A stretch of 60,779 nucleotides of DNA from a virus (Duplodnaviria > Caudoviricetes), in the IMG/VR virus record IMGVR_UViG_3300042982_000029, positions 1 to 60,779 of that record. One strand, given 5' to 3'. The position numbers and the translations under genes are program-made. This document shows positions 3,106 to 53,575 of this stretch, one piece after another. Position 1 is the stretch's first letter; every line of letters begins with the position of its first letter. Under the pieces are notes generated by a model. That model was given only the letters and a program-made list of their open reading frames with translations. It ran no database searches and was not told the DNA's origin.

Positions 3106-3639
3106 ATGCGAACCCTGATCCTTGCTGGATCCTTCCGGGAGGCGAGCACGTACGCTCGCGCTCGCGATCTTCGGTTCTATCGCTTCGCATCGTCGGCCGC
3201 CGCAGTCGAGACCTTCTCCGCCCAGCGGGTTGTCGAGCTGCCCGGGTTCGCCCGGCGTGCAGACCGGCATGCGCTGATCGCCGTTGCCAACCGCGTCACG
3301 CGGCGCGGCGGCGAGTGGGTGAAGGACGAGTACGTTCCGGAGCCCGAGCCCGTCGACGACTCCCCGTTGGGGATCCTGGGTCGGATGACCCGTGAGGATT
3401 GGCTGCTGGCCGGCGCCACGCCGGCCCAGGCCGCTCAGCTCACCCCGCAACTCACTGTTGAGCAGCGGGAAGCCGTCGACCGTGTAAACGCCGAGAAGGC
3501 GGAGCCCAAGCCGGCGGCCAAGCCGAAGCGCACCCGCAAGACCCCGCCCCCGCCCCGCCGGACCAGTTCGGGTAATGCCCGAGTTCCGGTGGCAGCGGAG
3601 AAGACCAGTATCCCGAACACCGACCCCTTCCAGGACTGA
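3106..3639 (+). CDS. Hypothetical protein
   Basis: AGGAGG RBS upstream of ATG; tightly coupled to the terminase small subunit gene. Confidence 0.7.
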   Translation: MRTLILAGSFREASTYARARDLRFYRFASSAAAVETFSAQRVVELPGFARRADRHALIAVANRVTRRGGEWVKDEYVPEPEPVDDSPLGILGRMTREDWLLAGATPAQAAQLTPQLTVEQREAVDRVNAEKAEPKPAAKPKRTRKTPPPPRRTSSGNARVPVAAEKTSIPNTDPFQD

Positions 3640-3642
3640 CCG

Positions 3643-4191
3643 ATGGCAGGAGAGCGCGGTCCGCTGCCGAAGCGGACAGAAGAGCGTCGCCGGCGCAACG
3701 TGCCGGACAAGCCGGTCGACCGCGTCGCGATCGGCGGGGACATCGACGACCTGTTCGGCGACGACATGCCGGACGAGCGCGTCGAGAACCGGATCCAGGC
3801 CGATGGCTTCGCCAAGGTCGTGGCCCCGCCGGTCAACGAGAGCTGGAACCCAATCGCGAAGATGATCTACGAGAGCCTACCCGAGTCCGGCCAGAGCATC
3901 TTCTTCGAGCCGTCCGACTGGGCTGCCGCCTACCTGCTGTGCGAGTCGATCAGCCGCGACCTGGAAGAGCAGGTCGTCGGCACGACGGAGTCCGGCCAGG
4001 TCATCAAGGACTACATCCCGATGAAGGGCGCCAGCCTCGCGGCCTACCTGAAGGGCCTCGGCGAGCTCGGCATGACCGAGGGCGCCCGCCGGCGCCTGTC
4101 CATCGAGCTGACCCGGGCCGACAACCGGCCGGCGGCCGAGCTCCCGGACGGCGTCGTCGACATCAACTCCGCGCGGGAGGGCCTGCTGTGA
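3643..4191 (+). CDS. terS: Terminase small subunit
   Basis: GPLPKR N-terminus, SGQSIFFEPSDW and LGMTEGARRRLSIE motifs typical of actinophage TerS; upstream of TerL. Confidence 0.8.
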   Translation: MAGERGPLPKRTEERRRRNVPDKPVDRVAIGGDIDDLFGDDMPDERVENRIQADGFAKVVAPPVNESWNPIAKMIYESLPESGQSIFFEPSDWAAAYLLCESISRDLEEQVVGTTESGQVIKDYIPMKGASLAAYLKGLGELGMTEGARRRLSIELTRADNRPAAELPDGVVDINSAREGLL

Positions 4192-4340
4192 GCGACGAGC
4201 CGAAGCACTTGACCGTCGAGGAGCTGGCCGAGGCCCTCGGTCACGAACTGCACTCCTGCGGTTACCCCGAGGGTACGTTTGCGTGCAAGATCCGGCACCT
4301 CCAGCTCAACACGGGGGCGGCCAAGGCCGCAAACGACTGA
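4188..4340 (+). CDS. Small hypothetical protein (50 aa)
   Basis: GTGA overlap with the terS stop and TGATG overlap with the terL start. Confidence 0.55.
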   Translation: MSDEPKHLTVEELAEALGHELHSCGYPEGTFACKIRHLQLNTGAAKAAND

Positions 4341-6274
4341 TGCTGTACGATCCGCGCTGGGACCGCGCTCCCGGCATGTACCACGACCCCGAGGGGCTCG
4401 TCTGCGTACCCCAGACCTACGGGCCGACCTGGCGCCGGAACCCCGACTGGGACGGGCAGAACAAGCTGGACCAGTTCGTCCTGCCCACCCGCACCCTTGG
4501 GTGGCAGGCGCTGAAGTGGATCCGCGACAACCTGCTGTCCGACGATCTCGATGAGAACGACCAGCCGCTCCCGTTCAAGCCGACGTTCGAGCAGGCCCGG
4601 TTCATCCTGTGGTTCTACGCCATCGACGAGAATGGCGAGTTCATCTACCGCGAGTACGTCCTCCAGCGGCTCAAGGGCTGGGGTAAGGACCCGCTGGCGG
4701 CGGTCATCTCGGCCGTCGAGTTCGTCGGGCCGTGCCGGTTTGCGGGCTGGGCGCGGCGAGACATGCCGGAGAAGGGCCTGAAGGCCGGCGACCCGGTCGC
4801 GAAGGGCCACCCTCGCGCGTGGATCCAGGTCGCCGCCGTCTCGCTCGAGCAGACCGGCAACACGATGAAGCTCTTCCAGGGCCTCTTCACCAAGAAGTGC
4901 ATGCAGGAGCACTCGATCGACCCGGGCAAGGAGCGCGTCTACGCGTACCACGGCCAGCGGGTCATCAACGCGGTCACCAGCTCCCCGAAGAGCCTCGAGG
5001 GTAACCGCGCCACGCTCGTCGTCATGAACGAGACGCACCACTGGCAGGCCAACAACTCCGGCCACGACATGGCCGACGTCATCGAGCGAAACGTCACCAA
5101 GTCGAAGGACGGCGCGGCCCGCACGCTCGCGATCACCAACGCGTACGAGCCCTCCGAGGACTCCGTAGCGCAGCGGATGCGCGAGGCCTGGGAAGAGGAG
5201 CAGGGTGACGATCTGATCGACTCCGGCATGTGCTACGACTCGCTCGAGGCACCGCCGGACGCCAAGCTGCGCCCGCCCACGAAGGAGCTCCCGGACGGCA
5301 CGAAGATCGAGCCGACCCGCGAGGAGATCATGGACAACTTCCGGGCCATCCTGGAGGCGGTCCGGGGTGACTCGGTGTGGCTGAACGTCAAGAACATGAC
5401 AAAGTCGATCCTGAACCGACGGAACAAGCCCTCTCGCAGCCGGCGGTTCTGGTTCAACCAGGTCGTCGCGGCCGAGGATGCCTGGATCGACCCGGGCGCA
5501 CTGTTGAAGGCGGTCGACCCGGACGTCGCCGAGATGCGCCAGAACCCGGGGCACGACGTGCTGAAGGTCGGCTGGGACGCGATCCTGCCCGGCGAGGAGG
5601 TCGTGCTGTTCGGTGACGGCTCGAAGTCGCACGACGCGACCGCGATCATGGGCTGCCGGCTGTCCGACGGCTACGTGTTCACGGTCGGCATCTGGGAGAA
5701 GCCGAAGGGTAAGCGCGGCGAGAAGTGGCTCGCGCCCCGTGGCTCCGTCACCAGCCGTGTAAACGAGGTGTTCAAGCGGATGAAGGTCGTCGCGTTCTGG
5801 TTCGACCCGTCGCACACCCAGGACGACGAGGATGGCGGCCGGTACTGGGACGGCACGATCGACCAGTGGTTCCGCGAGCACCGTGACGCGCTCGACAGCC
5901 AGTACTGGCCCCTGAAGAGCGGCAACAACACCCACGGCATCCTGTTCGACATGGCGACGCCGGCCAACCGCAAGCTGTTCGTCGGCGCTGCCGAGCAGTT
6001 CGTCGACGAGCTCGAGACCCTGGACGACATCGAGGAGTTCGCCCCCCAGTTCGCCCACGACGGGCACCCGCTGTTCATGTCTCACGCACGCAACGCGAAG
6101 CGCTTCCCGACCGACGACGGCACCTCGCTGATGAAGGAGGGCCGGGAGTCGCTGAAGAAGATCGACGCGGCCGTCTGCGCGGTCGGTGCCCGGATGCTGC
6201 GTCGCGTCGTGCTGAACCGGCCGCTCGAGGAAGAGGAGCCGCCGGGCGACGTGTGGGGCTTCCGTCGGCGTTGA
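4340..6274 (+). CDS. terL: Terminase large subunit
   Basis: Walker A RLKGWGKD, Walker B VVMNETHHW, coupling motif ITNA, nuclease FGDGSKSHDATA and KIDAAV. Confidence 0.93.
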   Translation: MLYDPRWDRAPGMYHDPEGLVCVPQTYGPTWRRNPDWDGQNKLDQFVLPTRTLGWQALKWIRDNLLSDDLDENDQPLPFKPTFEQARFILWFYAIDENGEFIYREYVLQRLKGWGKDPLAAVISAVEFVGPCRFAGWARRDMPEKGLKAGDPVAKGHPRAWIQVAAVSLEQTGNTMKLFQGLFTKKCMQEHSIDPGKERVYAYHGQRVINAVTSSPKSLEGNRATLVVMNETHHWQANNSGHDMADVIERNVTKSKDGAARTLAITNAYEPSEDSVAQRMREAWEEEQGDDLIDSGMCYDSLEAPPDAKLRPPTKELPDGTKIEPTREEIMDNFRAILEAVRGDSVWLNVKNMTKSILNRRNKPSRSRRFWFNQVVAAEDAWIDPGALLKAVDPDVAEMRQNPGHDVLKVGWDAILPGEEVVLFGDGSKSHDATAIMGCRLSDGYVFTVGIWEKPKGKRGEKWLAPRGSVTSRVNEVFKRMKVVAFWFDPSHTQDDEDGGRYWDGTIDQWFREHRDALDSQYWPLKSGNNTHGILFDMATPANRKLFVGAAEQFVDELETLDDIEEFAPQFAHDGHPLFMSHARNAKRFPTDDGTSLMKEGRESLKKIDAAVCAVGARMLRRVVLNRPLEEEEPPGDVWGFRRR

Positions 6275-7835: not shown

Positions 7836-8644
7836 TGGCGTCCAGCCCGGCGGCGGCGACCCTGACGCGCGCTGAGCAGCAGGCCGAGACCAAGCTTGGC
7901 CTGCTGTACGCCGCGCTCGCCGTGAAGCTCTGGCAGAGCTACGTCAAGCCCGACGACATCGATGGCGCCGGCTACGAGCGGTTCCTCGAGCTGCTCATCC
8001 CGAACATCCTGAAGGCCCGTACCCAGGCCGCCAGTAATGGCCGGACGTACTACCAGGCCTTCCGGGTCCTGGAGACCGGCGACCGCAACGTTTACACGCC
8101 GAAGACCGAGCTGATCACGCTCGACCGGTCCGTCGTCGAGACCAGTGCCCGCGTGACGGGCCCGGTCGCGTTCAAGGCGCGCGTCGCCGCGATCAAGCAG
8201 GTCGATCTGAAGCCCGAGGTCGAGAAGGCGCTCCTGGACAAGTTCTACAAGCAGTCCGCCGAGGGAGTCGCCGGCGCCATGATGCGCCACGTCATCGACG
8301 GCGCCCGCCAGCAGGTCCAGGAGGACGTCAAGACCGACGAGGTCGCCCTGGGGTACATGCGGGTCCTGAAGAGCATCGACCCCTGCTACTACTGCGCGAT
8401 GCTCGCCAGCCGGGGCCCGGTCTACAAGCAGGACAGCTTCGCAGCCTCCGACGCGCGGTTCACCGGTGGCGGCACGGAGAAGGTCCATGACCACTGCGCC
8501 TGCGGCATGGAGCCCGTCTTCCGCCGCGATTCCGACTGGACTCCGGGCGCGCGCGACGCCGCGAAGGTCTGGGGCGCGACGACCGCCGGCAAGTCCGGCC
8601 GGGGTGCGATCGCCGCCTTCCGGGCGGCCTGGGAAAGTCGCTGA
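7835..8644 (+). CDS. Head morphogenesis (MuF-like / capsid maturation) protein
   Basis: TGATG overlap with portal; PCYYCAMLASRG and HDHCAC motifs; lies between portal and scaffold. Confidence 0.75.
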   Translation: MASSPAAATLTRAEQQAETKLGLLYAALAVKLWQSYVKPDDIDGAGYERFLELLIPNILKARTQAASNGRTYYQAFRVLETGDRNVYTPKTELITLDRSVVETSARVTGPVAFKARVAAIKQVDLKPEVEKALLDKFYKQSAEGVAGAMMRHVIDGARQQVQEDVKTDEVALGYMRVLKSIDPCYYCAMLASRGPVYKQDSFAASDARFTGGGTEKVHDHCACGMEPVFRRDSDWTPGARDAAKVWGATTAGKSGRGAIAAFRAAWESR

Positions 8645-10357: not shown

Positions 10358-10375
10358 TCCACCCAGCTCCACAAC

Positions 10376-10410: not shown

Positions 10411-10438
10411 CCCGTTTACACCGAGTAGGATGGGACCC

Positions 10439-11296: not shown

Positions 11297-12039
11297 TGCC
11301 CGGCGACCTGGTGGCCGCCTGGTCGTTCGATTCGGCCCCGTGCGTCGACCATACCGGCAACGGCAACACGATCACCCCGACCGGAAACACGGTCGTCGCG
11401 GCGGGCGGAGCGCACGGCTCCGCCCTCACGCAGATCACGTCGTCCGAGACCTTCACCGCGTTCACGATGCCGTCGGCCTTCAACTCGCCGCAGCGCACCT
11501 GGATGGCTACCGTGAAGTGGGGCGGGTCCGGCGAGGTGGGCTGGCTCGGGGAGTTCTACAACCAGTCCGGCAATACCGGCGTCTGGGGACTGCTCTGCCT
11601 CGGCGGCGCGCTGCAGTTCAGGGCGAAGGACTCCAGTAGCCAGGAGCGGCACGTCGATCTGACCAAGCCGACGGTCTACACGACCGTGACGGCTACGTAC
11701 GACGGCACCAACCTCTCCGTTTACACGGACGACACGCTCATCAGCACGATCCCAATCCCGGCCATTTGGACCGCGACTCACTTTCGCCCCATGGATTTCG
11801 GCTCCGGCGGCCCGACGACGTTCATCGACGACCTGCGGCTCTTCAACGGAGCGCTCACTCCGGAGGAGATCGAGGCCTGGCGTGTCCTTCCGGCCGACCA
11901 GATGCCGGCCGAGGGCGGTAAACTGAAGTACGAGTCGGCCCCGGGCGTCTGGACACCGGTGCCCCTGAAGACGGAGACCGGCGAGCCGCTGGTCGTCAAG
12001 TCTGAGACCAGTCCGGGGACATGGGAGGTACTGCCGTGA
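11296..12039 (+). CDS. LamG/concanavalin A-like domain virion protein
   Basis: LVAAWSFD start, TATYDGTNLSVY and IDDLRLFNGALTPEEI are LamG-type signatures. Confidence 0.75.
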   Translation: MPGDLVAAWSFDSAPCVDHTGNGNTITPTGNTVVAAGGAHGSALTQITSSETFTAFTMPSAFNSPQRTWMATVKWGGSGEVGWLGEFYNQSGNTGVWGLLCLGGALQFRAKDSSSQERHVDLTKPTVYTTVTATYDGTNLSVYTDDTLISTIPIPAIWTATHFRPMDFGSGGPTTFIDDLRLFNGALTPEEIEAWRVLPADQMPAEGGKLKYESAPGVWTPVPLKTETGEPLVVKSETSPGTWEVLP

Positions 12040-15003: not shown

Positions 15004-15517
15004 TCGATCGGTACTTCCCGCAGATCGAGGTCGACTTCGCCCGTCACTACCCTGGGATTGATCCCGGCGAGTTGTGGCGGGCGAGGCGTTTCCGGCGCCT
15101 GCTCAACCTGATCGACCATCTGCCGAGGAACACGTACTACTCCCAAGCCGTGATGAACGATCCCGAGCACATGGCGATGCTCGACCGCGTGAAGGAGCAG
15201 GGCGACCCCGGTCCGCCGCCGCTCCCGCCGCTGGCCACCTGGTCAGCCGAGGTCGACATGGGCGCCACGATCAACGACTCGATCCAGCAGCTCATGGACG
15301 CCCTGATCCGGTCGAACGTCGACAAGGCGCACCAGAAGAGCGTGCCGCCGATCAAGTGGACTCCGCGCCCTGGCCGGCCGGTCGACTCGGTCAAGAAGGA
15401 CATGCTTACCCCCGAAGAGAAGAAGGCTCGTCACCAGCGCGCCGTGGAGCTGTTCAAGCCCCGTCCGGTCGACTGATAGACTGTCTGTGACCCGTTTACA
15501 CGCGAGAGGACCGGCCG

Positions 15518-18500
15518 ATGGCTGACGACGGCTTTGACGCCGGTTCGATCTTCGTCCAGGTCGTGCCCTCGTTCCGGGACACGCAGCGGATCATCGAGAA
15601 GGAGTCGAAGAGCTTCGGCGACCGGCTCGAGAAGGATCTCTCCGAGGGCATGGAGCGCGGCGCCGAGCGCGGCGCCAAGAAGGCCTCCGAGAAGCTGTCC
15701 GGCCTGACCGACGAGGTCGGCAAGAACGCCGACAAGTCCGGTGAGAAGGCGGCCGACGAGTACGCCGGCGCGTTCCGGACCAAGCTGCAGAACGCGCTCC
15801 GCTCCATGGAGAAGGAGCTCAAGCCGATCGAGTTCAACACGGGCTCGACCAAGGCGCTCGCCGACCTGGACCGCATCAAGGCCAAGATCGCGGAGCTGAA
15901 CGACGCCGAGATCAAGCCCGGCATGTCGACCACCAAGATCCGCAAGGACATGGACGACCTGCTCCGCGACCTGCAGAACCTCGGCAAGGACTCCGAGATC
16001 GAGGTCAAGGCCGACTTCAACGAGGCCCGCCGCGCGGCGGAGGCCTTCAAGAAGTACGTCGAGTCCATCGACCCGAAGGTCGAGCTCGAGGTCGAGACCA
16101 AGACGGCTGAGCGGCAGCTCGGTGAGTTCGAGTCGAAGATGAAGGCCTCCATCAAGGGCGCCATGAAGGCGATCGGCGACCAGTCCGGTCCCGAGCTGGC
16201 CAAGCTGAAGAAGCGCCTGGAATCCCTGAGCGACGCCGACATCGACATCGACATCTCGGCCGCCGACGCCCTGCGGGAGCTCGAGGACATCCACCGCGAC
16301 CTCGCGCAGATCAACGGCACCACTGCCACCGCGCGCGTTCGGGTCGACTCCGGCAAGGCGCTCGCCGAGCTGATCCTGCTGAACCGCGAGGTCGACAAGC
16401 TCGACGGCCAGACCGCGAAGGTGAACGCCCGCACGAAGGGCCGGGGCCTCGTGTCCTGGCTGATCGGCGGCACCGGCACCGGCGGTCGCGGCGGCGAGGC
16501 GGCCACGGCGTTCCGTACGTTCAACGGCGTCCTTCTCACGGCCGTCACCCTCGGCCCCGCGCTGATCCCGATCCTGGCCGGCATCGCTGGCGGCCTCCTG
16601 GCGATCGGCCCGGCGGCCCTGTCCGGCGTCGCTGGCCTGGGCACGCTGCTGCTCGCCTTCGGCGGGATCGGTAACGCCCTCCAGGCTCTGAACCAGGCAG
16701 AGACTAAGTCCGCGAAGGACTCGGTCACCGCTGCCCGTACGATGCGCAACGCTGCGCAGGGTGTCGAGGATGCCCAGCGCTCACTGACTCGCGCACGGCG
16801 AGACGCAAAGCAGGCCGGCCTGGACGCGGCGAAGGCTGTCGCGGACGCTGAGGAGGAGGCGGCCCAGCGTAACGCGGACGCTGCTCGCCGTGTCGCTGAC
16901 ACGCGCGAGCAGGTCGCCCGCCAGACCGAGGCTGCCCTGAAGCGTCAGCAGGACGCTGAGGAGCGCCTGGCCGACACGCAGCGCGACGCCACTCGGGCGC
17001 AGGAGGATCTGGCCGCAGCTCGCCTGCAGGCCCAGAAGGACCTCGACGACATCGCGGACAAGAGCCGGCAGAACGCGCTCGACATCCGGCAGGCCACCAT
17101 CGACCTGTTCGACGCGACCACCGCGAACAACGCGGTCCAGGCTGACCCTGGCGCGACGAACAAGGAGAAGGAGCAGTCGGACATCAACCTGAAGCAGGCC
17201 CAGCTCCGGCTTGAGCAGCTTCGGGACACCGAGAAGGACCTGGCTGAGCAGAAGGCCAAGGGCGACAAGGGCGGTGTAAACGGCACTGATCGGGTCATCC
17301 AGGCCCAGCAGCGGCTGAACGACGCCCTGAAGGCCCAGAAGGATGCCCAGGACGATGTGGCCGACTCGGCCGCAGAACTGCGCCAGACCCAGACGGACGG
17401 CCTGCAGGCGGTCGCTGACGCCCTCAAGGCGCAGAAGGACGCGGCGAAGGATGGCCAGGACAGCATCGCGGCTGCTGTAGAGGCTCAGCGACGCGCGCAG
17501 GTCTCGGCCGCCGAGTCCATCGGCGACGCGCAGCGCGGCCTCCAGCGCGCCCAGCAGTCCTACAGCGACGCGCTCTACGACACCGGCGAGCAGGGCTCTG
17601 CGGCGATGCAGAAGGTCCGCGACGCCATGAGCAAGCTGGGCCCCGACGCCCAGCGCTTCACCCTGTTCATCTTCGGCCTGCGCGACGAGTTCTATAAGCT
17701 ACGCAACGTGGCCGCCGCCGGCATCCTCCCGGGTGTCCAGGAGGCGCTGCAGACCCTGATCACGACCTACGGGCCGTCGCTGTTCAAGTTCGTCGGCGAC
17801 ATGTCCAAGGTCATCGGCGACTTCGCGGTCAAGCTCGGCCAGGTCCTCTCGACCGGCGTGATGAAGGACTTCTTCGGGATCTTCGCGCAGACCGCCCCGC
17901 TCCTGGCCGGCGAGTACGGCAAGGGCTTCCTGCAGTGGATGCAGGTCATCGCCCGGCTGCTCATCGTCTCGACCCCGCTGGCGCTGAAGTTCGCCGGCTG
18001 GCTGACCGACATCGGCAAGAAGGCCAACGAGTTCCTCGACAGCCCCGAGGGCATCAAGATCATGGGCGACTTCTTCCGGTACATCGACCGGATCGCGCCC
18101 AAGGTCGAGAAGTTCTTCAAGAACCTCGGCGCGGCCGTGATCGCCGTCGCTGTCGCGATCGCACCGGTCGGCGAGGACATCCTGACCGTGCTGACGAACG
18201 TGCTCGGCTGGATCGCCGCGATGGACCCGAAGACGCTGCAGCTCATCGTCACGGCGATCCTCGCGATGGCCGCCGCGTTCCAGATCACCGCGATCGCGGT
18301 CGTCGTGCTCTACGCCGCGATCAACTTCTTCGCGAGCCCGCTGCAGCTCATCATCGTCGCGATCCTCGCGGTCGCCCTCGGCCTGTACCTGCTGTACACG
18401 CGCAGCGACACGGCGCGCAAGATCATCGACGCGGCGTTCAGGGGCATCGCGGCCGTGGCGACCTGGCTGTTCGACAACATCCTGAAGCCGGCGATCGCCT

Positions 18501-20539: not shown

Positions 20540-20540
20540 C

Positions 20541-21437
20541 ATGTGGGACCTGGCAGATCACCAGTTCGAGCTCCTGCCCGACGAGGACCTCCCCGACGGG
20601 CTCGAGTTCGGCATCTACCTGGACCTGTCTGTCGATGACGGCGGCTTCGACCCGGGGTCCGCCGAGTGGATCGTGCAGGACGGCACCAACCCGCTCGACG
20701 GCACCACCCAGTTCGGCCGCGACTCGCTCGCCGGCGAGACCTGGGCGTGGAACGCGCATGTCAACCGGACCGACGAGACCGAGGCGCTCGAGACGCTGCG
20801 CCGCGTCCGGAAGGCCTGGCGCGCCCGCGCGACCGCGAAGGACCCGGGCAAGATGTCGGTTATCCGGTACCAGATGGACGGGAAGCGCCGCCGTACGTAC
20901 GGCCGGCCGCGCCGCCTGGCCGCGCCGCCCGACAACAAGATCCTGACCGGCTACGTCCCGGTCACCATGGACTTCAAGACCGTCACGCCGCTCACGTTCG
21001 ACGACCTGGAGCAGATGACCACGGTCAACTTCAACTCCACGTCCAACGGCGGCCTGCGGTTCCCGGTCGCGTTCCCGGCCAGCCCGCTCCCGCCCGGCGA
21101 GCGGCAGGGCTCGATCCTGGTCGGCGGCGACGCCCCTACGTACCCCGTTTACACGTTCGTCGGGCCGATCGTGAACCCTTGGATCATGTGGGACGATCGC
21201 AAGTGGACGTTCAACGCCTCGCTGAACGACGGGATCCGCATGACGGTCGACACCCGGCCGTGGAAGCGGACCATCGTCGCGAACGGCTCGTACGCGCCCG
21301 GTGCGCTCGGCCGGCGCCAGTACCTGCAGGACATGACGATCGACCCGGGTGGCCACGAGGTCGTCTTCGGCGGCCTGTCGAGCTTCGGCACCGCCCAGCT
21401 CGAGTTCCGGTGGCGCGACGCCTACGAGGGATTCTGA
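20541..21437 (+). CDS. Minor tail protein (distal tail-like)
   Basis: First gene after the tape measure; GDAPTYPVYTFVGPIVNP and WRDAY motifs. Confidence 0.78.
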   Translation: MWDLADHQFELLPDEDLPDGLEFGIYLDLSVDDGGFDPGSAEWIVQDGTNPLDGTTQFGRDSLAGETWAWNAHVNRTDETEALETLRRVRKAWRARATAKDPGKMSVIRYQMDGKRRRTYGRPRRLAAPPDNKILTGYVPVTMDFKTVTPLTFDDLEQMTTVNFNSTSNGGLRFPVAFPASPLPPGERQGSILVGGDAPTYPVYTFVGPIVNPWIMWDDRKWTFNASLNDGIRMTVDTRPWKRTIVANGSYAPGALGRRQYLQDMTIDPGGHEVVFGGLSSFGTAQLEFRWRDAYEGF

Positions 21438-27852: not shown

Positions 27853-27932
27853 ACGTTCCAATCAGGCGGCCGGGTTGCGTCAGTCAGCTACCATGGGGTG
27901 ACAGACAATCGCCCCCAAGACTGGACGGCTTC

Positions 27933-38234: not shown

Positions 38235-38534
38235 TCAGTGGTTGGGGTGCTCCTCGCCGGGACGGAACTTCTCGGCCTTGCGAGCGGCTCGAGCCGCCCG
38301 CCCCTGCATGGAAGTGCGCTTATTGTGATGAAACGAGCACAAAAGGCGAAGCTTGTGTAAACGGTGGTCGTCCGGGTCGCCGACGTGGTCGACGTCCGTG
38401 CCCTTCCGGGGGCACCGCTTACCGGACGGAAGGCGCCAACGACACCGACCATTGTCACGTTCCTTGATCGCGGGGACGATCTCCGACTCCCAGTTGGGAG
38501 GGAGATCGCGCCCCTTCTCGTCGCCCCAGGTCAC
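38235..38534 (-). CDS. Small HNH endonuclease (cos-packaging associated type)
   Basis: IKERDNGRC..C...TDVDHV...LRLLCSFHHNKRT...RPGEEHP. Confidence 0.82.
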   Translation of the reverse strand: MTWGDEKGRDLPPNWESEIVPAIKERDNGRCRWRLPSGKRCPRKGTDVDHVGDPDDHRLHKLRLLCSFHHNKRTSMQGRAARAARKAEKFRPGEEHPNH

Positions 38535-41203: not shown

Positions 41204-41234
41204 CGTGGTGCTCCTCTCGCTCGTCGTGTAAACG

Positions 41235-43440: not shown

Positions 43441-44591
43441 TTGATGTACAGCTTCGGCTCGTAGGAACCCGGGGTCTGGCCGGCCGGCGGCTGCAGGTCC
43501 TTCCAGATCCGCTTCGTGATGTCCTTGCCGTCGAGCTGCGCGAAGAACGCCCAGGCGTCCTCCTCGGCCTCCTGGAACAGCCGCGCCAGGGCGCCACGCT
43601 TGTCCCGGTCGACGTACCAGCCCTCCTCCTCGTCCAGGCCGACCAGACCGCCCTTGAATGCGTACGACATGGTGTTCTGGTACGAGTCGACCAGGTCGCG
43701 GTATCGGCGCTTGAAGTTGTTCTGGATCTCCGTGTAAACGCCACGGGTCCAGGCGTGGAACTCGTCCGGCAGCGGCTCGAGGATGTCGCCGATGACCTGG
43801 CCGTCCAGGATCGCCTCGTAGACGCGGCGGGTCGACAGGCCGAACACGATCCGGTGCAGCAGCAGGTAGTCCTCCTGCTTCAGCTTCACCATCTTGTCGG
43901 TGCCGCGCTGCCGTACGACGTAGCCCTCGGCGTTCGGCCGGGGCGGGGCCGCCAGGGCGTCCGCGAAGGTCGCGAAGTGGAAGTGATCGGCGCGCGGGCC
44001 GGTCCAGCCGTGGAAGTTGGCCGTGACGCGAGTGTTGTTCACGAACCCCGTCTCGAGCTCGACCGAGCCCAGCAGCACCAGCATGTCGGCGTCGCCGTAG
44101 TCCAGCACGATCCGGTTGTCCGGGTAGACGATCTCGAACAGGATCGTGTCGTCGTCGGCCGGCACGAAGTCGCTGTACTCGCGGTCGAACAGCTCGGTGG
44201 CGTGGACGGCCTGGTCGGACGTGAACGACCCGCGCGTCGCGATCGCGTAGCCGCCCGCGTTCGGCCGGCGGTACAGGATGCCGAGCGAGCCGTCGACCTT
44301 GTCCTGGACCTCGACCTCGGCGTCCAGTGGGATCTGCGCGGCCTGCGGCTGGCCGTGGTTCCAGAACTTCGGGAACGGCCGGGCGACGATCGTGCCATCC
44401 GTCGTGTTCCAGATCAGCCCACGGCAGTAGTTCAGCGAGGGGACCTGCTCGAATAGCTCGGGCTTGGTCTGCGCACGGTCGGTGTAGTTGATGATCCGCA
44501 GCGGCTCGGTCGGGTGGGTCTGCTCGCGGATGTAGCCGTTGGCCAGCAGCCAGCCGAGCTCGTCGGCCGGGGTCAGGTCGTACAGGTGCAC
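43437..44591 (-). CDS. RNA ligase, T4 Rnl1-like
   Basis: CRGLI..VARPFPKFWN, motif I KVDGSLG, ATRGSF, FEIVYP.NRIV, AEGYVV, VKLK. Confidence 0.92.
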   Translation of the reverse strand: MHLYDLTPADELGWLLANGYIREQTHPTEPLRIINYTDRAQTKPELFEQVPSLNYCRGLIWNTTDGTIVARPFPKFWNHGQPQAAQIPLDAEVEVQDKVDGSLGILYRRPNAGGYAIATRGSFTSDQAVHATELFDREYSDFVPADDDTILFEIVYPDNRIVLDYGDADMLVLLGSVELETGFVNNTRVTANFHGWTGPRADHFHFATFADALAAPPRPNAEGYVVRQRGTDKMVKLKQEDYLLLHRIVFGLSTRRVYEAILDGQVIGDILEPLPDEFHAWTRGVYTEIQNNFKRRYRDLVDSYQNTMSYAFKGGLVGLDEEEGWYVDRDKRGALARLFQEAEEDAWAFFAQLDGKDITKRIWKDLQPPAGQTPGSYEPKLYIK

Positions 44592-46331: not shown

Positions 46332-47554
46332 CGGCCGAATCCAGCCGGCTCGGTCCGGTACGTCTGCTTCGGCGACAGGATCTCCAGGTCGCCGTAGTTC
46401 AGCGGCAGCCACTTGTCCAGCCGGAGCGTCAGCAGGCCAGCGGGCGTCTCCTCGCCCGAGCCGAACCGGAACCACTGCGAACCGGGGTCCATCGCGGGCG
46501 CCTGGATCGCCGTGCGACGGCCGTACGTCACCGCGCTGAAGTGGTGGAAGTGCCCCGACAGCAAGATGTCCGAGCCGGACACCGGTTGGAGCCCGAACTC
46601 CTGGTTCTTCCACCACTCGTGGGCCTTGGCCTGCACCGTCGACCCCTTGCGGAACATGTGCCCGTGAGTCATGCCGACGTGGACGCCGCCGAGCGGGATC
46701 GACATCGACAGCTCTTCGTCCGGGATGAACCAGCGGAGACCCTCCGTGCCGGCGCGTGTAAACGCCTCACGAACGGCCTCAAACGCAGCTACGTCGTCGT
46801 TGTCGCCGGGGTTGGTGAAGGACTTGCCGTCGTGCCTGTTCTCGCCGTGGTTGCCCGCTACCGTCGCGATCACGAACGTCTCGAACAGCGGGTGGATCTC
46901 GTCGATGATGTGGGTGATCAGCTCGCGGGTGATGCGGCCCTGCTCGCGACGCGTACGGTCGACGTTGAACTGCTGCGCCGGGTAGAACCCGATGCACCCC
47001 TCGACCAGGTCGCCCAGGCCCAGCAGGGCGCCGGTGGGCATCTGGCGGCCGATGCGCCGCAGGTCCTTGATCCGCTGCTTGGTCATGTCGACCGCCTCGA
47101 GGATCCGGTCCACGGTCTGGTCGGTGCCGCTGCCGCCCTCGGCCTTCCCGATCTGCCAGTCCGACGCGACGACCGCGAACGCGTCGCCCTCGGTGAACGT
47201 CGGCCGGGTCGCGACCCGGCGCCGGCGGATGTGCTTCACCAGGTCGTCGACGTGCGCCTGGACCGCTGCGGCCGACTCGGCAGCCGTGACACTGAACTTG
47301 AAGTAGTTCAGCCACCGGCCGTCATAGGCCTGCCACTTGCGGAACTGGATCGTGCCCGGGGTGATGCGCCACTCGTCCGGGTCGAACCCGGCGCCGAGGA
47401 GCAGGTCGTGCTCGGTGGCCTTGGGGTTCGGCAGGCGGACGATCGCCGAGCCGACCTGGTCGTGGATCTCGGTGTATTCCTTCCACGCCGCCGGGACCGT
47501 GTCACCCTTGCGGTACGCCGCTTCCAGGTCCTTCTTCAGATCCTCGTCGCTCAT
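46328..47554 (-). CDS. Calcineurin-like metallophosphoesterase (Mre11/SbcD-like)
   Basis: SDWQIGK, LGDLVEG, VAGNHGE, THGH, SGHFHH. Confidence 0.87.
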   Translation of the reverse strand: MSDEDLKKDLEAAYRKGDTVPAAWKEYTEIHDQVGSAIVRLPNPKATEHDLLLGAGFDPDEWRITPGTIQFRKWQAYDGRWLNYFKFSVTAAESAAAVQAHVDDLVKHIRRRRVATRPTFTEGDAFAVVASDWQIGKAEGGSGTDQTVDRILEAVDMTKQRIKDLRRIGRQMPTGALLGLGDLVEGCIGFYPAQQFNVDRTRREQGRITRELITHIIDEIHPLFETFVIATVAGNHGENRHDGKSFTNPGDNDDVAAFEAVREAFTRAGTEGLRWFIPDEELSMSIPLGGVHVGMTHGHMFRKGSTVQAKAHEWWKNQEFGLQPVSGSDILLSGHFHHFSAVTYGRRTAIQAPAMDPGSQWFRFGSGEETPAGLLTLRLDKWLPLNYGDLEILSPKQTYRTEPAGFGR

Positions 47555-49056: not shown

Positions 49057-50301
49057 TTACTTGGAGTGCGTGATCGTGACGAGCTGCTCGAAGTCGCCCG
49101 ACACCCGGACGTCGCCCATGATCGCCGTGTAGGTGACCGTGTCGCGACCTTCCTTCAGCCGCAGCTTCTTGCCGGCGAGGTCGCCGTCGGTGAATGTCAG
49201 CCAGTACGTGCCGCCCTGGTCCGCCTCGACGTACGCGTTGCCCTTGGCTGTCAGGTATGACGGCTTCCAGACGTGGTTCGCCGGGACGAGCCGGGTTACC
49301 GTCACCTCGACAGGCTTGCGGCGCTCGGACAGCAGGCGCTGCTTCTGCAGCCGCAGGACCTTGGTGATCTTGTACGCGTCGTACCGTGTGTGGCTGGACA
49401 ACTGCAGCTCGCACCAGTGCTTCCCGGCGTCCGCGCCGAACGTGTAGCCCCTGTTGTAGACCACCTCGGACGTCCTCGAGTTGCTGATCGCCACGCCGGC
49501 CCGCTCGGTACGGTGCGTAGCCGTCACGACGTCCCCGACCTCCACGGCCGCCCAGGAGCCCCTGACCTTGTCCGTCACGTCGACGTAGGCCGGCGACTCG
49601 GTCGGCTTGTCCGCACTCGCCAGGTCGGCCCGAAGGTCAGCGCCAGCCGGTGCCTGGTGGTTGCTCGGCGGCTGAACCGGGCGAGGGGATCCTCCAGCGC
49701 CGACGTGGATGTGCGCGCTGCCCCCGTTGCCGCCGCGCCCGCCGACCGCGCCCGGACCGATCGCCACGCCACCCTGGCCGCCTTGACCGCCGAAGGCCCC
49801 GAAGGCGTTCGCGATGTTCTCGTAGAACCCGTCCAGCTTGACGCGCGGGAACTGCCCCGGAGTGTTCTTCGCCTGCCGCAGGTACGACGGGTCCGTGTAA
49901 ACGACCTCACCGACCTGCAACTTGCCGTCCGCGTAGATCCCGCGCGTCTTGACCTGCACTGGCACCTTGTCAGTGCGGCTGATGCCCTCGGCGTGCGGGT
50001 CGCGGTCGACCACCACGCCAGTGATGTGCAGCCCGGCCGACAGGACCTCGTCGCCCTCCCAGAAGTCGCCGGCGAACTTGCGCTGGAGCTGGTCACGGCT
50101 GACCATGCCGCCCGTGTCCTGCTCCGGCAGGGCCACGCGGATGTCCCCGTCCGCGTCAGCCTCGTCGATCACTGTCAGCTCGGCCGCCGCCTTCAGCGCG
50201 CGGTGTGCGTTGGCGTTGATCAGGGTGTCCGAGTCGAACAGGTGGAACCCTGCCTGGCCCCCTTCCTTGACCCGTACGGTGTCGCCTACCTTGATGCTCA
50301 T
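49057..50301 (-). CDS. Multi-domain hypothetical protein (KOW/SH3-like modules, Gly-rich linker)
   Basis: Repeated VGD.V motifs; GAGGAG RBS. Confidence 0.6.
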   Translation of the reverse strand: MSIKVGDTVRVKEGGQAGFHLFDSDTLINANAHRALKAAAELTVIDEADADGDIRVALPEQDTGGMVSRDQLQRKFAGDFWEGDEVLSAGLHITGVVVDRDPHAEGISRTDKVPVQVKTRGIYADGKLQVGEVVYTDPSYLRQAKNTPGQFPRVKLDGFYENIANAFGAFGGQGGQGGVAIGPGAVGGRGGNGGSAHIHVGAGGSPRPVQPPSNHQAPAGADLRADLASADKPTESPAYVDVTDKVRGSWAAVEVGDVVTATHRTERAGVAISNSRTSEVVYNRGYTFGADAGKHWCELQLSSHTRYDAYKITKVLRLQKQRLLSERRKPVEVTVTRLVPANHVWKPSYLTAKGNAYVEADQGGTYWLTFTDGDLAGKKLRLKEGRDTVTYTAIMGDVRVSGDFEQLVTITHSK

Positions 50302-51322: not shown

Positions 51323-52213
51323 TCATCGACGGCTCCGACGCAGCACGCCCTTGCCGTCGACGTACACGACGGAGTACTCGGCCGGGTCGAACGTGATCTC
51401 GCCCTCGGAGTTGGGAGCGAACTTCGCGCGGACGTGGTCCAGCCGGCTCAGCCGAGCGGTCTCCTCGGCCTCGTCGACGAACTCCAGCCGGTCGACCGTA
51501 GGCCCCGGGTCGGTGCCCGGGGCCAGCTCGAAGACGTCGTCGACAGCCTCGGTCGCCTCGTGCGCGGCGGTGCCCGGCACGGCCAGGTTCACGCCATCGT
51601 CCCCGCCGCCCAGCTCCTTGCGGACCCACGGCAGCCGGAGATGCGTGGAGCCCCGGACCTTCGACGCAGCGACGTACCCCTGCTCGACCAGGCCAGCCTC
51701 GGCCAGCGCGTCCAGCAGCCGGAAGTACTCGATCTCGCCGACCGGCTTGTCGATGTACAGGTGGTAGTGCCCGGCCGTGCTCGACGGCAGCACCCGCACC
51801 GGGTGATCGATGTCAATCATGACCGTGTGGTAACCAGTCCTGTTACCTTCGGCGTCCACGAGCTCCGACGACCAGGTCTGCGCCCGGCTTAGCTCGGCCT
51901 GTGGGCGCGACACCGGCTGGTTGGGCTCCTCGGAGATCTGGCCCGGCCGGAAGTCCACCGAGTAGTACTTGTGCTGGTACGCCGACAGCTCGTCCAGGCG
52001 CGGCGCGGCCGGCCGCATCGGGCCGAACAGGTCACCCTCGGACCACACCTCGCCGGAGACCTTCACGCCGACCGGCTGGATCCCCGGCTTGCCGTCCGAC
52101 TGGATGTGCGTCTCGCCGGTCACCAGCGGCGTACCGTCCAGGCCGCCGGTCCAGTCGACCTCGTCGAACCCGAAGGAGCTGAGCACCTCGGCCCGCTCGT
52201 TGTTGTCACTCAT
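51323..52213 (-). CDS. Hypothetical protein with AEP-like DxD/GHxH motifs
   Basis: VMIDIDHPVRVLPSSTAGHYHLYID; TGATG coupling. Confidence 0.55.
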   Translation of the reverse strand: MSDNNERAEVLSSFGFDEVDWTGGLDGTPLVTGETHIQSDGKPGIQPVGVKVSGEVWSEGDLFGPMRPAAPRLDELSAYQHKYYSVDFRPGQISEEPNQPVSRPQAELSRAQTWSSELVDAEGNRTGYHTVMIDIDHPVRVLPSSTAGHYHLYIDKPVGEIEYFRLLDALAEAGLVEQGYVAASKVRGSTHLRLPWVRKELGGGDDGVNLAVPGTAAHEATEAVDDVFELAPGTDPGPTVDRLEFVDEAEETARLSRLDHVRAKFAPNSEGEITFDPAEYSVVYVDGKGVLRRSRR

Positions 52214-52439
52214 CAGTAACCTCGCATCCTGCGGCCGTACGCCGCGTCGTCCTCGACTTGCTGCCTGCGCTTCTGCGCCTCGTACGCCGCCTGGTTGCGG
52301 CGCCGGACCTTGATCACGATCCACGCGATCGGCGGGACCAGCAGGATCAGGCCGCCCGTGAGCGGGATCCCGATGATGGCCACCAAGATCCCGAAGATGA
52401 TCAGGCCACCCTTGCAGGCGCTGTGGTCGTCTACCCCGT

Positions 52440-52823
52440 TCAGTTTTCCTCCGTTTCCAGCCCTGCTGAACGCCGAGCTGCGCTGAACATCTCGCGGCAC
52501 GTGGGGCAGATCGCCGGCACGTGAGGCAAGACTACCTGCAGATAATCCATGGCGTCAAGACCCTGCAGACGCAACATCGTAGCGCCGAACGCCACGACCT
52601 CCCAGCCCTCGCCATGGATCCACCGGCCCGGCCGCACCCAGGCGACCTCGAACTCCGAGCCCTCCGGCGGCCGATGCTCAGCGTTGAAACCCCACTCCGA
52701 ATCGTTCGGCACCCACAACGACTCGCCACGCTCGAGCGCCCACACCGGCCGGATCCCGATCATGCCGTGCGGGCGCTGCGCCGAGTAGTCCGGGACGTCG
52801 AACTTGCCGGTAGCCTGGATCAC
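52440..52823 (-). CDS. Hypothetical protein (C-terminal CxxC)
   Basis: GTGA overlap; HG...ICPTC. Confidence 0.45.
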   Translation of the reverse strand: MIQATGKFDVPDYSAQRPHGMIGIRPVWALERGESLWVPNDSEWGFNAEHRPPEGSEFEVAWVRPGRWIHGEGWEVVAFGATMLRLQGLDAMDYLQVVLPHVPAICPTCREMFSAARRSAGLETEEN

Positions 52824-53575
52824 GGGATCTGCTTCCTGGTGACCGTCGGGTACAGGCCCGCGATCATCTTGATGTAGTACTTGTCGTAAGAGTCCAGCGT
52901 GTGGCCCTCGCGCATGATCGATGTGACGCGTGGCTGCGCGTGAGACAGCCCGAACGCGTGGCCCAGCTCGTGCGCCCACACGTCCTGCCACTCGTTGCCG
53001 CCGCCGCACGGGGTCAGCTTGGACCCTGTCACGTTGACCTTGATCATCGGCAGCCCCAGGTAGCCGTCGTCAGCGTACGCGCCGTAGTTGCGCGGCAGCG
53101 TCATGCCGCACGTCGACGGGTTCGCGTTCTTGTCGTGCGTCGTGAACGCGTAGTACGTGATGCGCCGGTTCGCGGGGAAGCCGTGCGCCTTGCACTGTCC
53201 AGCGCCGATGTAGGCCGAGATCAGGATCCGCGAGTCGATCTGGCGGAACAGGTTCGCGACACCGGCCAGCGGTGCGCCCGCGATGCTGGAGTCGATGCAC
53301 ACCCAGGTGCGGCCGTCGGCCAGCGTCGGGAAGCGCCACCCCTGGTACCAGCAGTAGCCGTACGGATTGCCGTCGTTTACACACGACGTGGCGGCCGTCG
53401 CGGCACCGGTCGTCAGGTGCTCGGCGGGAGGCGCGGTGACCGTGACGGTCGGCGCCGGCGTCGGCCCGTAGTCGTCGTGCTGCGGCACGAACGAGATCCC
53501 CAGGAAGTACAGCAGGAGACCGATGATCATCCCCAGGCTGACGTTACGCGCGATGCGCAGTTGGTACTCGGTCAC
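52820..53575 (-). CDS. Membrane-anchored matrixin-like (metzincin) metalloprotease
   Basis: N-terminal TM segment, Pro/Thr linker, HELGHAFGLSH and Met-turn SIM. Confidence 0.82.
   Translation of the reverse strand: MTEYQLRIARNVSLGMIIGLLLYFLGISFVPQHDDYGPTPAPTVTVTAPPAEHLTTGAATAATSCVNDGNPYGYCWYQGWRFPTLADGRTWVCIDSSIAGAPLAGVANLFRQIDSRILISAYIGAGQCKAHGFPANRRITYYAFTTHDKNANPSTCGMTLPRNYGAYADDGYLGLPMIKVNVTGSKLTPCGGGNEWQDVWAHELGHAFGLSHAQPRVTSIMREGHTLDSYDKYYIKMIAGLYPTVTRKQIP

What the first reader, a model, noticed from the sequence alone, without database searches (positions are those of the whole stretch)
3481..53383. Genome-wide AT-rich pseudo-palindrome (C)GTGTAAAC(G) spaced mostly every 2-5 kb
Seen in sequence: I counted at least 17 exact GTGTAAAC/GTTTACAC cores, with 10-mers starting at 3481, 5756, 8089, 10413, 11718, 15493, 17273, 21146, 27846, 31478, 33219, 38354, 41225, 43731, 46755, 49894 and 53374. 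Near matches occur at 23318, 9290 and 47718, and most copies are the full CGTGTAAACG. A rough zero-order estimate assuming ~68% GC gives about 0.5 expected copies. In genes the motif forces A/T-ending codons (GTA, GTT, CGT) that are rare elsewhere in this genome. Copies occur in both orientations in both arms, unlike the transcription-oriented stoperators of L5-like phages. Several are intergenic next to -10-like boxes: 41225 covers a predicted start site, and 10413 and 15493 sit beside such boxes. I found none in the last 7 kb or first 3.4 kb. Inference: binding sites for a dimeric phage or host protein (repression, genome compaction or localisation, or an injection/packaging signal) in a phage with no evident integrase.
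Basis: partly seen in the sequence, partly recalled or inferred. Interest (0 to 1): 0.75.

Follow-up and report, generated by a model that had tools for sequence, protein, structure and literature searches.

The report
Evenly spaced exact DNA word in phage
An uncultured soil phage and its relatives keep one exact 8-10 letter DNA word about every 3 kb on either strand, mostly written into genes through rare codons, so some protein must read the whole genome at these marks, but which protein and why is still open.

Summary
GTGTAAAC occurs 17 times in this complete 60.8-kb phage genome, and 12 copies are the full CGTGTAAACG. About 0.1-0.4 copies are expected, and the excess survives a codon-aware null.

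It is the most over-represented 8-mer here and in a 61.4-kb relative with 20 copies that shares only 21 of 76 proteins. It also recurs in most related metagenome fragments.

- The word is all-or-none: one-base variants sit at chance and the two perfect palindromes are absent.
- Sites lie on both strands with no detectable order. They are spaced more evenly than chance, and the two strands fill each other's gaps.
- None of 401 sampled Actinomycetota genomes holds more than 8 copies.
- I found no integrase or ParB domain.

My best reading is a genome-wide array of docking sites for an asymmetric, sequence-specific protein, reader unknown (0.35). Rivals are a nick-associated motif as in phages tf and T5 (0.25) and recognition sites of the phage's own primase-polymerase/helicase (0.2). 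The second rests on a 7-of-8 match to the phage NrS-1 origin repeat.

This scan has noted evenly spaced arrays of other words in other phages. I rate it a new variant of a known kind.

The parts
3481..3490 (+). site CGTGTAAACG inside ORF 3106-3639
   Evidence: conserved in 4 of 4 aligned relatives
5756..5765 (+). site CGTGTAAACG inside the terminase large subunit gene (codons CGT GTA AAC)
   Evidence: exact in 7 of 13 aligned relatives, and GC-ending codons where it is lost
8089..8098 (-). site CGTGTAAACG inside ORF 7622-8644
   Evidence: absent in 3 of 3 aligned relatives
10413..10422 (-). site GGTGTAAACG, non-coding, between a hairpin after the capsid gene and the ribosome-binding site of 10430
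   Evidence: absent in 2 of 2 aligned relatives
11718..11727 (-). site CGTGTAAACG inside ORF 11296-12039
15493..15502 (-). site CGTGTAAACG, non-coding, 16 nt before the tape-measure start codon
   Evidence: core kept in the one aligned relative
17273..17282 (+). site GGTGTAAACG inside the tape-measure gene
   Evidence: kept in 1 of 2 aligned relatives
21146..21155 (-). site CGTGTAAACG inside ORF 20406-21437
27846..27855 (+). site CGTGTAAACG whose TAA is the stop codon of ORF 27232-27852
31478..31487 (-). site CGTGTAAACA near the 5' end of the endonuclease VII-like gene
   Evidence: same aligned position as a site in the 61-kb relative
33219..33228 (+). site CGTGTAAACG inside ORF 32282-33370
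38354..38363 (+). site TGTGTAAACG inside the 99-aa HNH endonuclease gene
41225..41234 (+). site CGTGTAAACG, non-coding, 22 nt upstream of the start of ORF 40970-41203 (minus strand)
43731..43740 (+). site CGTGTAAACG inside the RNA ligase-like gene 43437-44591
46755..46764 (+). site CGTGTAAACG inside the exonuclease gene 46328-47554
49894..49903 (+). site CGTGTAAACG inside ORF 49057-50301
53374..53383 (-). site TGTGTAAACG inside ORF 52820-53575
500..2965 (+). primase-polymerase + D5-type helicase gene: candidate reader only, not shown to bind the word
   Evidence: (Prim-Pol, D5_N, DUF5906); homologues in 4 of 4 motif-bearing relatives where this region is held

Best explanation
The word cGTGTAAACg is a recognition site that a sequence-specific protein reads on the phage's duplex DNA. 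The reading is asymmetric, of the single-subunit type, and does not depend on which strand carries the word. Selection keeps the number and even spread of sites (about one per 3 kb) rather than particular positions. Sites are lost and regained, often through synonymous rare codons, while the array persists. So the array marks or organises the whole phage chromosome as distinct from host DNA; it does not control individual promoters.

Shown: the enrichment, its conservation across the lineage, its DNA-level nature, the strict asymmetry, the strand-independent spacing, and its rarity in the sampled host-phylum genomes.

Inferred: that a protein binds the sites, that binding without cutting is the primary event, and that the purpose is genome-wide marking or organisation.
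For: - Enrichment is 50-200 fold over Markov, shuffle and codon-aware nulls in two genomes.
- The word ranks first among 8-mers in both the window and a relative that shares only 21 of 76 proteins. It is present in 10 of the 16 fragments whose TerL is 51-88% identical and in all 5 IMG/VR records searched. One further 17-kb relative has none.
- On 45 independent sites, information is confined to 10 bp: C at 78%, the invariant 8-mer, then G at 91%.
- One-base variants are at chance (12 observed against 7.5 expected; 6 against 7.2). Palindromic versions occur 0 times.
- Sites fall in several frames and on both gene strands. Synonymous codon choice creates the TerL site.
- Positions turn over between relatives about 80% identical in DNA: of 6 window sites with a usable alignment, 4 are kept in at least one relative and 2 in none.
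- Spacing is even. Sliding the minus-strand set against the plus-strand set worsens evenness: P = 0.0016 in the relative, 0.10 and 0.047 in the window.
- The order of orientations looks random: runs test P = 0.36 and 0.52.
- The 10-mer occurs at most 8 times in each of 401 sampled Actinomycetota genomes, 0 times in 170 of them, and is not clustered in the five richest.
- Some sites sit between a hairpin and a ribosome-binding site. In the relative, two sites head a duplicated leader of about 60 nt before the capsid and major tail genes.
Against: - No reader was found. There is no ParB N-terminal domain. No HTH or WhiB-like protein aligns between the two genomes.
- The only shared non-structural proteins are enzymes: primase-polymerase/helicase, HNH endonuclease, endonuclease VII-like protein, an exonuclease and a SprT-like protein.
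- The total lack of near-consensus copies resembles enzyme recognition more than a typical operator set.
- Most window sites (13 of 17) lie inside genes, unlike most known repressor arrays.
- The word is identical in phages whose shared proteins are 23-65% identical. That is unusual for a co-evolving phage reader and its site.
- Nothing here shows binding.
Confidence: 0.35

Rival explanations
1. Nick-associated motif. A phage nuclease cuts one strand at each word, so virion DNA carries localized single-strand interruptions, as in phages T5, phiKMV and tf/Rembedalsseter.
For: The sequence pattern matches the published cases closely.
- tf has 14 copies and Rembedalsseter 13 copies of an exact 9-mer in about 45 kb, against about 0.7 expected. 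The motif is conserved across relatives with little DNA similarity, lies inside and outside genes, and has almost no one-base variants (passages of PMC3517423 and PMC11780129).
- Here too the word is all-or-none and conserved across diverged relatives.
- Both complete genomes lack an integrase, like the lytic nicked phages.
- Two nucleases of the HNH-like metal-finger fold are shared by both genomes: the 99-aa HNH and the 305-aa endonuclease VII-like protein.
- The only site at the same aligned position in both genomes lies in the endonuclease VII-like gene.
- The two closest site pairs in the relative (43 and 250 bp apart) are same-strand pairs.
Against: - In every published case read here, the motif lies on one strand only. 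Here the split is 10:7 and 14:6.
- The HNH belongs to a family found in 961 phage records, many next to terminase genes, so packaging explains its conservation.
- No physical data: only assembled contigs were available, which cannot show molecule ends.
Confidence: 0.25
2. Recognition word of the phage's own primase-polymerase/helicase (window 500-2965). The enzyme starts primers, or loads, at these words, and the phage writes them through its genome because it relies on this enzyme and has no polymerase gene that I detected.
For: - The protein has Prim-Pol, D5_N and D5-type helicase domains. Homologues are present in 4 of 4 motif-bearing relatives where that region is held.
- Enzymes of this architecture have strict template words. 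pRN1 ORF904 needs GTG and starts the primer at the base 5' of it (PMC2034472 passages). NrS-1 polymerase uses GTG(A/G) and the 8-mer TTTGGTTA (PMC8718748 passages).
- Our word begins with GTG, and the base 5' of it is C in 78% of 45 sites.
- I fetched NrS-1 to test something else. Its top 8-mer is GTGTAACC, 7 of 8 identical to GTGTAAAC. It sits in 11 repeats just after the primase gene, and those repeats contain the published TTTGGTTA.
- The window's own repeat cluster upstream of the gene (100-375) has the core YGTAAC.
Against: - In NrS-1 the word is clustered at one origin and not dispersed. TTTGGTTA occurs once, against 1.7 expected.
- The origin-type repeats differ between the window and L010, while the dispersed word is the same.
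- The N-terminal primase part is only about a quarter identical between the window and the 61-kb relative, yet the word is identical.
- Site orientation follows no fork polarity.
- Per-strand gaps reach about 22 kb, and the even spacing holds only when both strands are pooled.
- The NrS-1 resemblance was noticed after looking at the top words of 7 other sequences, so its chance probability is perhaps a few percent.
Confidence: 0.2
3. Signal for a host factor. Either a Chi-like word that tames a host end-processing nuclease, or decoy sites that soak up a host regulator.
For: - An unchanged word across strongly diverged phages fits a constant external reader.
- Site density, about 1 per 3 kb, is in the range recalled for Chi in E. 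coli (from memory, no call).
- Low copy number in bacterial genomes fits a specific regulator with a small regulon.
Against: - A Chi-type word should be abundant in the host genome. None of the 401 sampled Actinomycetota genomes has more than 8 copies of the 10-mer.
- There is no orientation polarity.
- The host is unknown. The closest prophage TerL is 43% identical.
- No known actinobacterial binding motif that I recall matches (memory only).
Confidence: 0.1
4. Promoter or other transcription-oriented signal (phage-specific promoter element, terminator, RNA-level motif).
For: Five non-coding sites, three in the window and two in the relative, have GTTTACAC on the sense strand 16-23 nt before a start codon and upstream of a ribosome-binding site.
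Against: - Most sites are inside genes, and both orientations relative to transcription are common: 6:11 and 9:11.
- No sigma-70-like promoter lies near the left-arm sites.
- The word lacks the final T that I recall as typical of actinobacterial -10 boxes (memory).
Confidence: 0.04

Closest known systems
Nick-associated motif of Pseudomonas phages tf and Rembedalsseter (TACTRTGMC / WACTRTGAC); also T5 and phiKMV-like phages
   Same: An exact 8-9 bp word, 13-20 copies per 45-61 kb against fewer than 1 expected. It is conserved across relatives with little DNA similarity, lies inside and outside genes, and has almost no one-base variants. The function is unknown (PMC3517423, PMC11780129 passages).
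   Different: The published motifs lie on one strand only and, in the tf group, bunch towards one side of the genome. Here both strands carry the word and spacing is even. Nicks are not shown here.
17-bp dyad repeat of Cluster O mycobacteriophages (TGTTCGGNNNCCGAACA)
   Same: More than 30 invariant copies throughout an actinophage genome, about a third inside genes, not tied to promoters. There is no integrase and the function is unknown (PMC4351075 passages).
   Different: That repeat has clear dyad symmetry, is denser at the right end and is mostly intergenic. Ours is asymmetric, shorter, evenly spread and mostly intragenic in the window.
Stoperators of Cluster A mycobacteriophages (13 bp) and R4-like Streptomyces phages
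   Same: An asymmetric short site repeated across both genome arms of actinophages, read in Cluster A by a monomeric repressor (PMC6550527 and PMC10276819 passages; PMC9283540 search listing only).
   Different: Stoperators are oriented with transcription and belong to temperate phages with a cognate repressor. Their motif drifts with the repressor. Here orientation is mixed, no integrase, ParB domain or repressor was found, and the word is identical across deep divergence.
Template recognition words and origin repeats of primase-polymerase/helicase proteins (pRN1 ORF904: GTG; phage NrS-1: GTG(A/G), TTTGGTTA, repeat AAAGTGTAACC)
   Same: The phage encodes the same protein architecture. The word starts with GTG and is 7 of 8 identical to the NrS-1 repeat core.
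   Different: The known words are either a trinucleotide or clustered at a single origin. No genome-wide array has been described in the passages I read, and none exists in NrS-1.

Membership tests
Cluster A-type stoperator system | Sites predominantly in one orientation relative to transcription | tested here: not met
   Sense to antisense is 6:11 in the window and 9:11 in the relative. The feature is as stated in PMC6550527.
Cluster A-type stoperator system | Temperate phage with an immunity repressor plus integrase or parABS | tested here: not met
   No Phage_integrase, Resolvase or ParB_N match at E <= 0.1 in either complete genome. No repressor was identified.
Cluster A-type stoperator system | Asymmetric site read by a monomer | tested here: inconclusive
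   The asymmetry is invariant, but no protein is known.
Nick-associated motifs (T5, phiKMV, tf) | Exact short consensus far above chance and conserved among diverged relatives | tested here: met
Nick-associated motifs (T5, phiKMV, tf) | All sites on one DNA strand | tested here: not met
   Plus to minus is 10:7 and 14:6.
Nick-associated motifs (T5, phiKMV, tf) | Physical single-strand breaks at the motif in virion DNA | not testable with these tools
   Only assembled contigs of public runs were available.
Cluster O-type dyad repeats | Two invariant inverted 7-bp arms (dyad symmetry) | tested here: not met
   Only 4 of 5 base pairs are symmetric. The symmetric versions occur 0 times.
ParB/KorB/Noc loading-site arrays | The phage encodes a ParB N-terminal domain protein | tested here: not met
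   0 of 2 genomes match PF02195 at E <= 0.1 in a six-frame search. The control rang in 11 of 14 genomes.
Chi-type recombination hotspot | The word is strongly over-represented in the host chromosome | tested here: not met
   At most 8 copies of the 10-mer in each of 401 sampled Actinomycetota genomes. The true host is unknown, so this is not final.
Primase-polymerase recognition site | A primase-polymerase with helicase is encoded by the element | tested here: met
Primase-polymerase recognition site | Primer synthesis depends on the word | not testable with these tools
   This needs enzyme assays. The sequence is merely compatible: GTG start, and C at the position 5' of it in 78% of sites.

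The most novel reading that the evidence does not exclude
The word is the extended recognition sequence of the phage's own primase-polymerase/helicase. A polymerase-less lytic phage would then write its own priming or helicase-entry points every ~3 kb through its genes. That would be the first genome-wide array of primase sites, and it would suggest that GTGTAA(A)C-type words are an ancient specificity shared with the NrS-1 enzyme.
Probability: 0.2. Interest if true: 0.85.

Novelty: new variant of a known kind. Interest (0 to 1): 0.62.

Why it matters
Genome-wide arrays of short exact words are turning up in many phage groups, and for most (T5/tf nicks, Cluster O repeats) the function has stayed unknown for years. 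This case adds a clean example with an unusual mix of traits: strictly asymmetric, on both strands, evenly spaced, mostly inside genes, and identical across relatives that share little else.

It also offers a concrete candidate reader, the primase-polymerase/helicase, that a few oligonucleotide assays could test. Whatever reads the word distinguishes phage from host DNA by about 100 to 1000 fold in site density. That is of interest for replication, packaging and defence biology, and as a marker for finding this uncultured lineage in metagenomes.

Tried and rejected
- **Literature search for the word itself**: 1,422 papers hold one of the four strings. The 30 listed are primers, shRNAs and unrelated uses, with nothing on phage motifs. 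A search on over-represented octamers in phages found nothing relevant among its 13 papers.
- **Close relatives among cultured phages.** Megablast of the first 20 kb found only a 42-bp tape-measure match. Capsid identity is at most 40%. The nearest, Streptomyces phage Attoomi, has 0 copies. Primase-helicase identity is at most 28%.
- **HNH as a motif-specific reader: rejected.** It belongs to a family present in 961 phage records, and an IMG/VR scan with the two-sequence profile found only the known relative.
- **ParB-type loading, prompted by earlier notes of this scan: rejected.** There is no ParB domain.
- **2-aminoadenine DNA.** A dATP/dGTP diphosphohydrolase domain is present, but there is no PurZ/adenylosuccinate synthetase match.
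- **Global periodicity of site positions.** A Rayleigh scan over 200-8000 bp gave a maximum of 10.6, below the 95% null value of 11.15.
- **Orientation blocks suggesting fork polarity.** Not significant by runs tests.
- **Sequencing runs.** No RNA holder is listed, and all 23 listed runs are kept as contigs. Laying four runs showed that relatives exist in other soil and plant metagenomes. Only 40 of 2,821 differences were printed, and no molecule ends can be seen, so nothing could be concluded about conservation or nicks at the sites.
- **Host genomes with the most copies** show no clustering, so no hidden prophage relative was found that way.
- **My own early labels were wrong and are corrected.** The 821-aa protein used is the primase-polymerase/helicase, not the terminase. 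The 663-aa protein used is the terminase large subunit, not the portal.
- **Gene calls** are my own rough ORF/GC-frame calls. Starts are the longest-ORF starts, so 'near the 5' end' statements are uncertain.
- **Supplementary files** of the cited papers were not seen. Stoperator tables in them might bear on the comparison.
- **Unpublished genomes.** The 401-genome tally includes 13 genomes flagged unpublished: G131, G185, G402, G237, G059, G250, G029, G347, G159, G093, G329, G354, G099. The three genomes with the maximum of 8 copies are not among them, so the claim holds without them.

Full report
**What the window is.** The window is a whole virus record of 60,779 bp, rated 100% complete, with 67% G+C.

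My rough gene calls put the left arm on the + strand up to about 30.4 kb and the right arm on the - strand.

Left arm:
- primase-polymerase + D5-type helicase, 500-2965 (PDB 7OLA 'DNA primase', E = 5e-15)
- small terminase, 3643-4191
- large terminase (TerL), 4283-6274 (phrog_9, E = 4e-61)
- SPP1-type portal, 6294-7835
- capsid, 9353-10357
- major tail protein
- tape measure, minor tail proteins, an M15 peptidase lysin and a holin

Right arm:
- an endonuclease VII-like protein, a dATP/dGTP diphosphohydrolase domain, two exonucleases, two RNA-ligase-like proteins, a polynucleotide kinase-phosphatase, a SprT-like protein and a weak WhiB-like protein
- a 99-aa HNH endonuclease

No integrase of either type, no ParB domain and no adenylosuccinate-synthetase-like gene was found by six-frame family searches. 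I found no DNA polymerase among the proteins scanned, but not every ORF was scanned.

No cultured phage is close. The nearest prophage TerL is 43% identical, in Nakamurella lactea. The host is therefore an unknown actinobacterium.

GTGTAAAC occurs 17 times, 10 on the + strand and 7 on the - strand, at exactly the listed places. Dinucleotide shuffles give 0.29 on average and never more than 2. Twelve copies are CGTGTAAACG.

An order-3 Markov model expects 0.36 and ranks the word first of all 8-mers. With the sites masked from the background the expectation is 0.085.

The codon-aware null shuffled synonymous codons within each gene. This keeps the proteins and each gene's own codon pool, including the rare codons that the word itself contributes. 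It leaves a mean of 3.9 copies, about 3 of them unshuffled non-coding sites, against 17 observed.

**It is a lineage trait.** A complete 61,388-bp relative (G001) has 51% capsid identity, 54% TerL identity and 23% primase-helicase identity to the window. It shares only 21 of 76 proteins by BLASTP. It carries 20 copies against 0.35 expected, and the word is again its top 8-mer. Its codon-aware null gives 6.95, about 6 of them unshuffled, against 20 observed.

Fragments of closer relatives carry 2-4 copies in 5.5-13 kb. Among the 32 metagenome contigs found with the TerL profile, 10 of the 16 with 51-88% identity hold the word. The six without it are 1.9-7 kb long. None of the 16 with 45% identity or less holds a full 10-mer. 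One 17-kb relative with a 52% identical major tail protein has none.

**Anatomy of the word.** On 45 independent sites from all these sequences, information is confined to ten positions: C (78%), the invariant GTGTAAAC, then G (91%).

The site is a near-palindrome, CGT-GTAA-ACG, but the asymmetry never varies. GTTTAAAC and GTGTACAC occur 0 times in both genomes.

The 24 one-base variants of the core are at chance: 12 observed against 7.5 expected in the window, 6 against 7.2 in the relative. The word is therefore all-or-none, with no halo of weaker copies.

**DNA level, not protein level.** Window sites inside genes lie in all three frames and on both gene strands. One provides a stop codon (27847). 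Three are non-coding and sit 16-22 nt upstream of start codons, two of them just after a hairpin.

At the TerL site, relatives that keep the word use CGT GTA AAC in a genome where about 90% of third positions are G or C. Relatives that lost it read CGG GTC, CGC GTG and the like.

Positions turn over between relatives about 80% identical in DNA:
- Site 3482 is kept in 4 of 4.
- Site 5757 is exact in 7 of 13.
- Site 15494 is kept in 1 of 1.
- Site 17274 is kept in 1 of 2.
- Sites 8090 and 10414 are kept in none (0 of 3 and 0 of 2).

The relatives also have sites that the window lacks. Several fragments are near-duplicates of one another, so these are not independent counts.

Between the window and G001 only one site is at the same aligned position, in the first codons of the endonuclease VII-like gene. 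Selection thus seems to act on number and spread, not on positions.

**Spacing and strands.** Window gaps range from 1305 to 6700 bp. The minimum gap has P = 0.001 and the CV of linear gaps 0.42 has P = 0.0003. In G001 the evidence is weaker, P about 0.02-0.03, with two close pairs at 43 and 250 bp.

The largest gap on a circular map spans the genome ends in both: 10.9 kb and 7.4 kb.

The order of + and - sites is indistinguishable from random (runs test P = 0.36 and 0.52). Yet sliding the minus set relative to the plus set makes the pooled spacing worse: P = 0.0016 in G001, and 0.10 (CV) and 0.047 (minimum gap) in the window. The two strands fill each other's gaps, which argues that the element works on duplex DNA without regard to strand.

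One oddity is unexplained. Five of the 35 neighbour gaps in the two genomes fall within 2322-2333 bp, at non-homologous places. That happened in 0-1 of 20,000 simulations under three nulls, but I chose the window size after seeing the data. No global periodicity supports it.

**Host side.** In 401 Actinomycetota genomes drawn evenly across the phylum, the 10-mer occurs 0-8 times per genome; 170 have none. In the five richest genomes the copies are scattered. At about 200 copies per Mb, the phage is two to three orders of magnitude denser. The word is therefore not a host-genome word such as Chi or an uptake signal, at least in the genomes sampled.

**Who reads it?** The non-structural proteins shared by the two complete genomes are few:
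- the primase-polymerase/helicase
- the HNH
- the endonuclease VII-like protein
- one exonuclease
- the SprT-like protein
- a lysin domain

The HNH belongs to a family present in 961 phage records, many beside terminases, so packaging explains its presence. HTH and WhiB-like proteins exist in both genomes but do not align.

The primase-polymerase/helicase deserves attention. Proteins of this build have strict template words (GTG for pRN1 ORF904, with the primer starting at the base 5' of it; GTG(A/G) and TTTGGTTA for NrS-1).

I fetched NrS-1 to ask whether its 8-mer is dispersed. It is not: it occurs once. But the genome's top 8-mer turned out to be GTGTAACC, 7 of 8 identical to our word. It is repeated 11 times in both orientations at 17062-17377, directly after the primase gene, and the published TTTGGTTA lies inside that cluster.

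The window has its own repeat cluster (core YGTAAC, about 10 copies) at 100-375, upstream of its primase-helicase gene. L010 has a different cluster (ACAAGACACA) there, together with a different helicase half but a roughly 85% identical primase half. Those clusters behave like origin repeats that co-vary with the helicase half. The dispersed word does not co-vary with them.

The resemblance to NrS-1 is suggestive but was noticed after the fact. The primase part is only about a quarter identical between the window and G001.

**Comparison with what is known.** Three published kinds are close.
- *Nick-associated motifs of tf/Rembedalsseter, T5 and phiKMV.* They share the statistics, the exactness, the conservation and the unknown function, but sit on one strand.
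- *The Cluster O 17-bp repeat.* It shares the genome-wide spread, the intragenic copies, the absence of an integrase and the unknown function, but is a true dyad.
- *Stoperators.* They are asymmetric and genome-wide, but oriented with transcription and tied to a repressor in temperate phages.

None of the three fits on every defining feature (see the membership table). I therefore file this as a new variant of the kind 'genome-wide recognition-word array in a phage', not as a member of any of them. Earlier notes of this scan describe evenly spaced arrays of other words in other phages, several attributed to ParB-type proteins.

**Verdict.** The element is real, strongly selected and read at the DNA level. 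My estimates are:

| Reading | Probability |
|---|---|
| Docking sites for an asymmetric duplex-DNA reader that marks or organises the phage chromosome | 0.35 |
| Nick motif | 0.25 |
| Primase-polymerase/helicase word | 0.20 |
| Host-factor signal | 0.10 |
| Transcription signal | 0.04 |
| Unassigned | remainder |

No binding, cutting or priming has been shown. The tests that would separate these readings are listed under next steps.

Noticed in passing
window 100-375: A cluster of about 10 short repeats with core YGTAAC(G/A), in both orientations, lies between the left genome end and the primase-helicase gene. It is likely an origin of replication or terminase-binding sites. The relative L010 has a different repeat (ACAAGACACA) at the same place (L010 1-468).
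   Followed up: partly
window 500-2965 vs L010 469-3009: The primase-polymerase/helicase is a mosaic. The first ~360 residues are about 85% identical between the two phages and the helicase half about 30%. This suggests exchange of the helicase/origin-binding half together with the upstream repeats.
   Followed up: partly
window sites and G001 sites (gaps between neighbours): Five of 35 neighbour distances are 2322-2333 bp, at non-homologous places in two genomes. A 718-bp distance recurs in G001 and in the L010-like contigs. No global period was found.
   Followed up: partly
G001 (reverse-complemented coordinates 14061-14140 and 19285-19305; L023): A leader of about 60 nt that begins with the word is duplicated in front of the capsid gene and the major tail protein gene of the relative.
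   Followed up: no
L072 (phage NrS-1) 17062-17377: Eleven copies of AAAGTGTAACC in both orientations lie directly after the primase-polymerase gene. The published 8-nt primase recognition sequence lies inside this cluster and occurs only there.
   Followed up: partly
window 1-9 and 60771-60779: The first and last nine bases of the record are identical (CGGCGGGAC). This is compatible with a cohesive end written twice or with an assembly overlap.
   Followed up: no
window 38235-38534: The packaging-type HNH endonuclease sits in the middle of the right arm, far from the terminase genes. In the relative it lies on the opposite strand to its neighbours.
   Followed up: partly
window 32282-33370: A dATP/dGTP diphosphohydrolase N-terminal domain, as in phages that make 2-aminoadenine DNA, is present. 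No PurZ-like gene was found in either genome.
   Followed up: yes
window 38531-39823: A 430-aa protein has a C-terminal segment of about 45 residues resembling a portal protein (weak PHROG hit). The segment is 41% identical over 49 aa to the end of the relative's portal homologue. A first-reader note describes the same thing.
   Followed up: no
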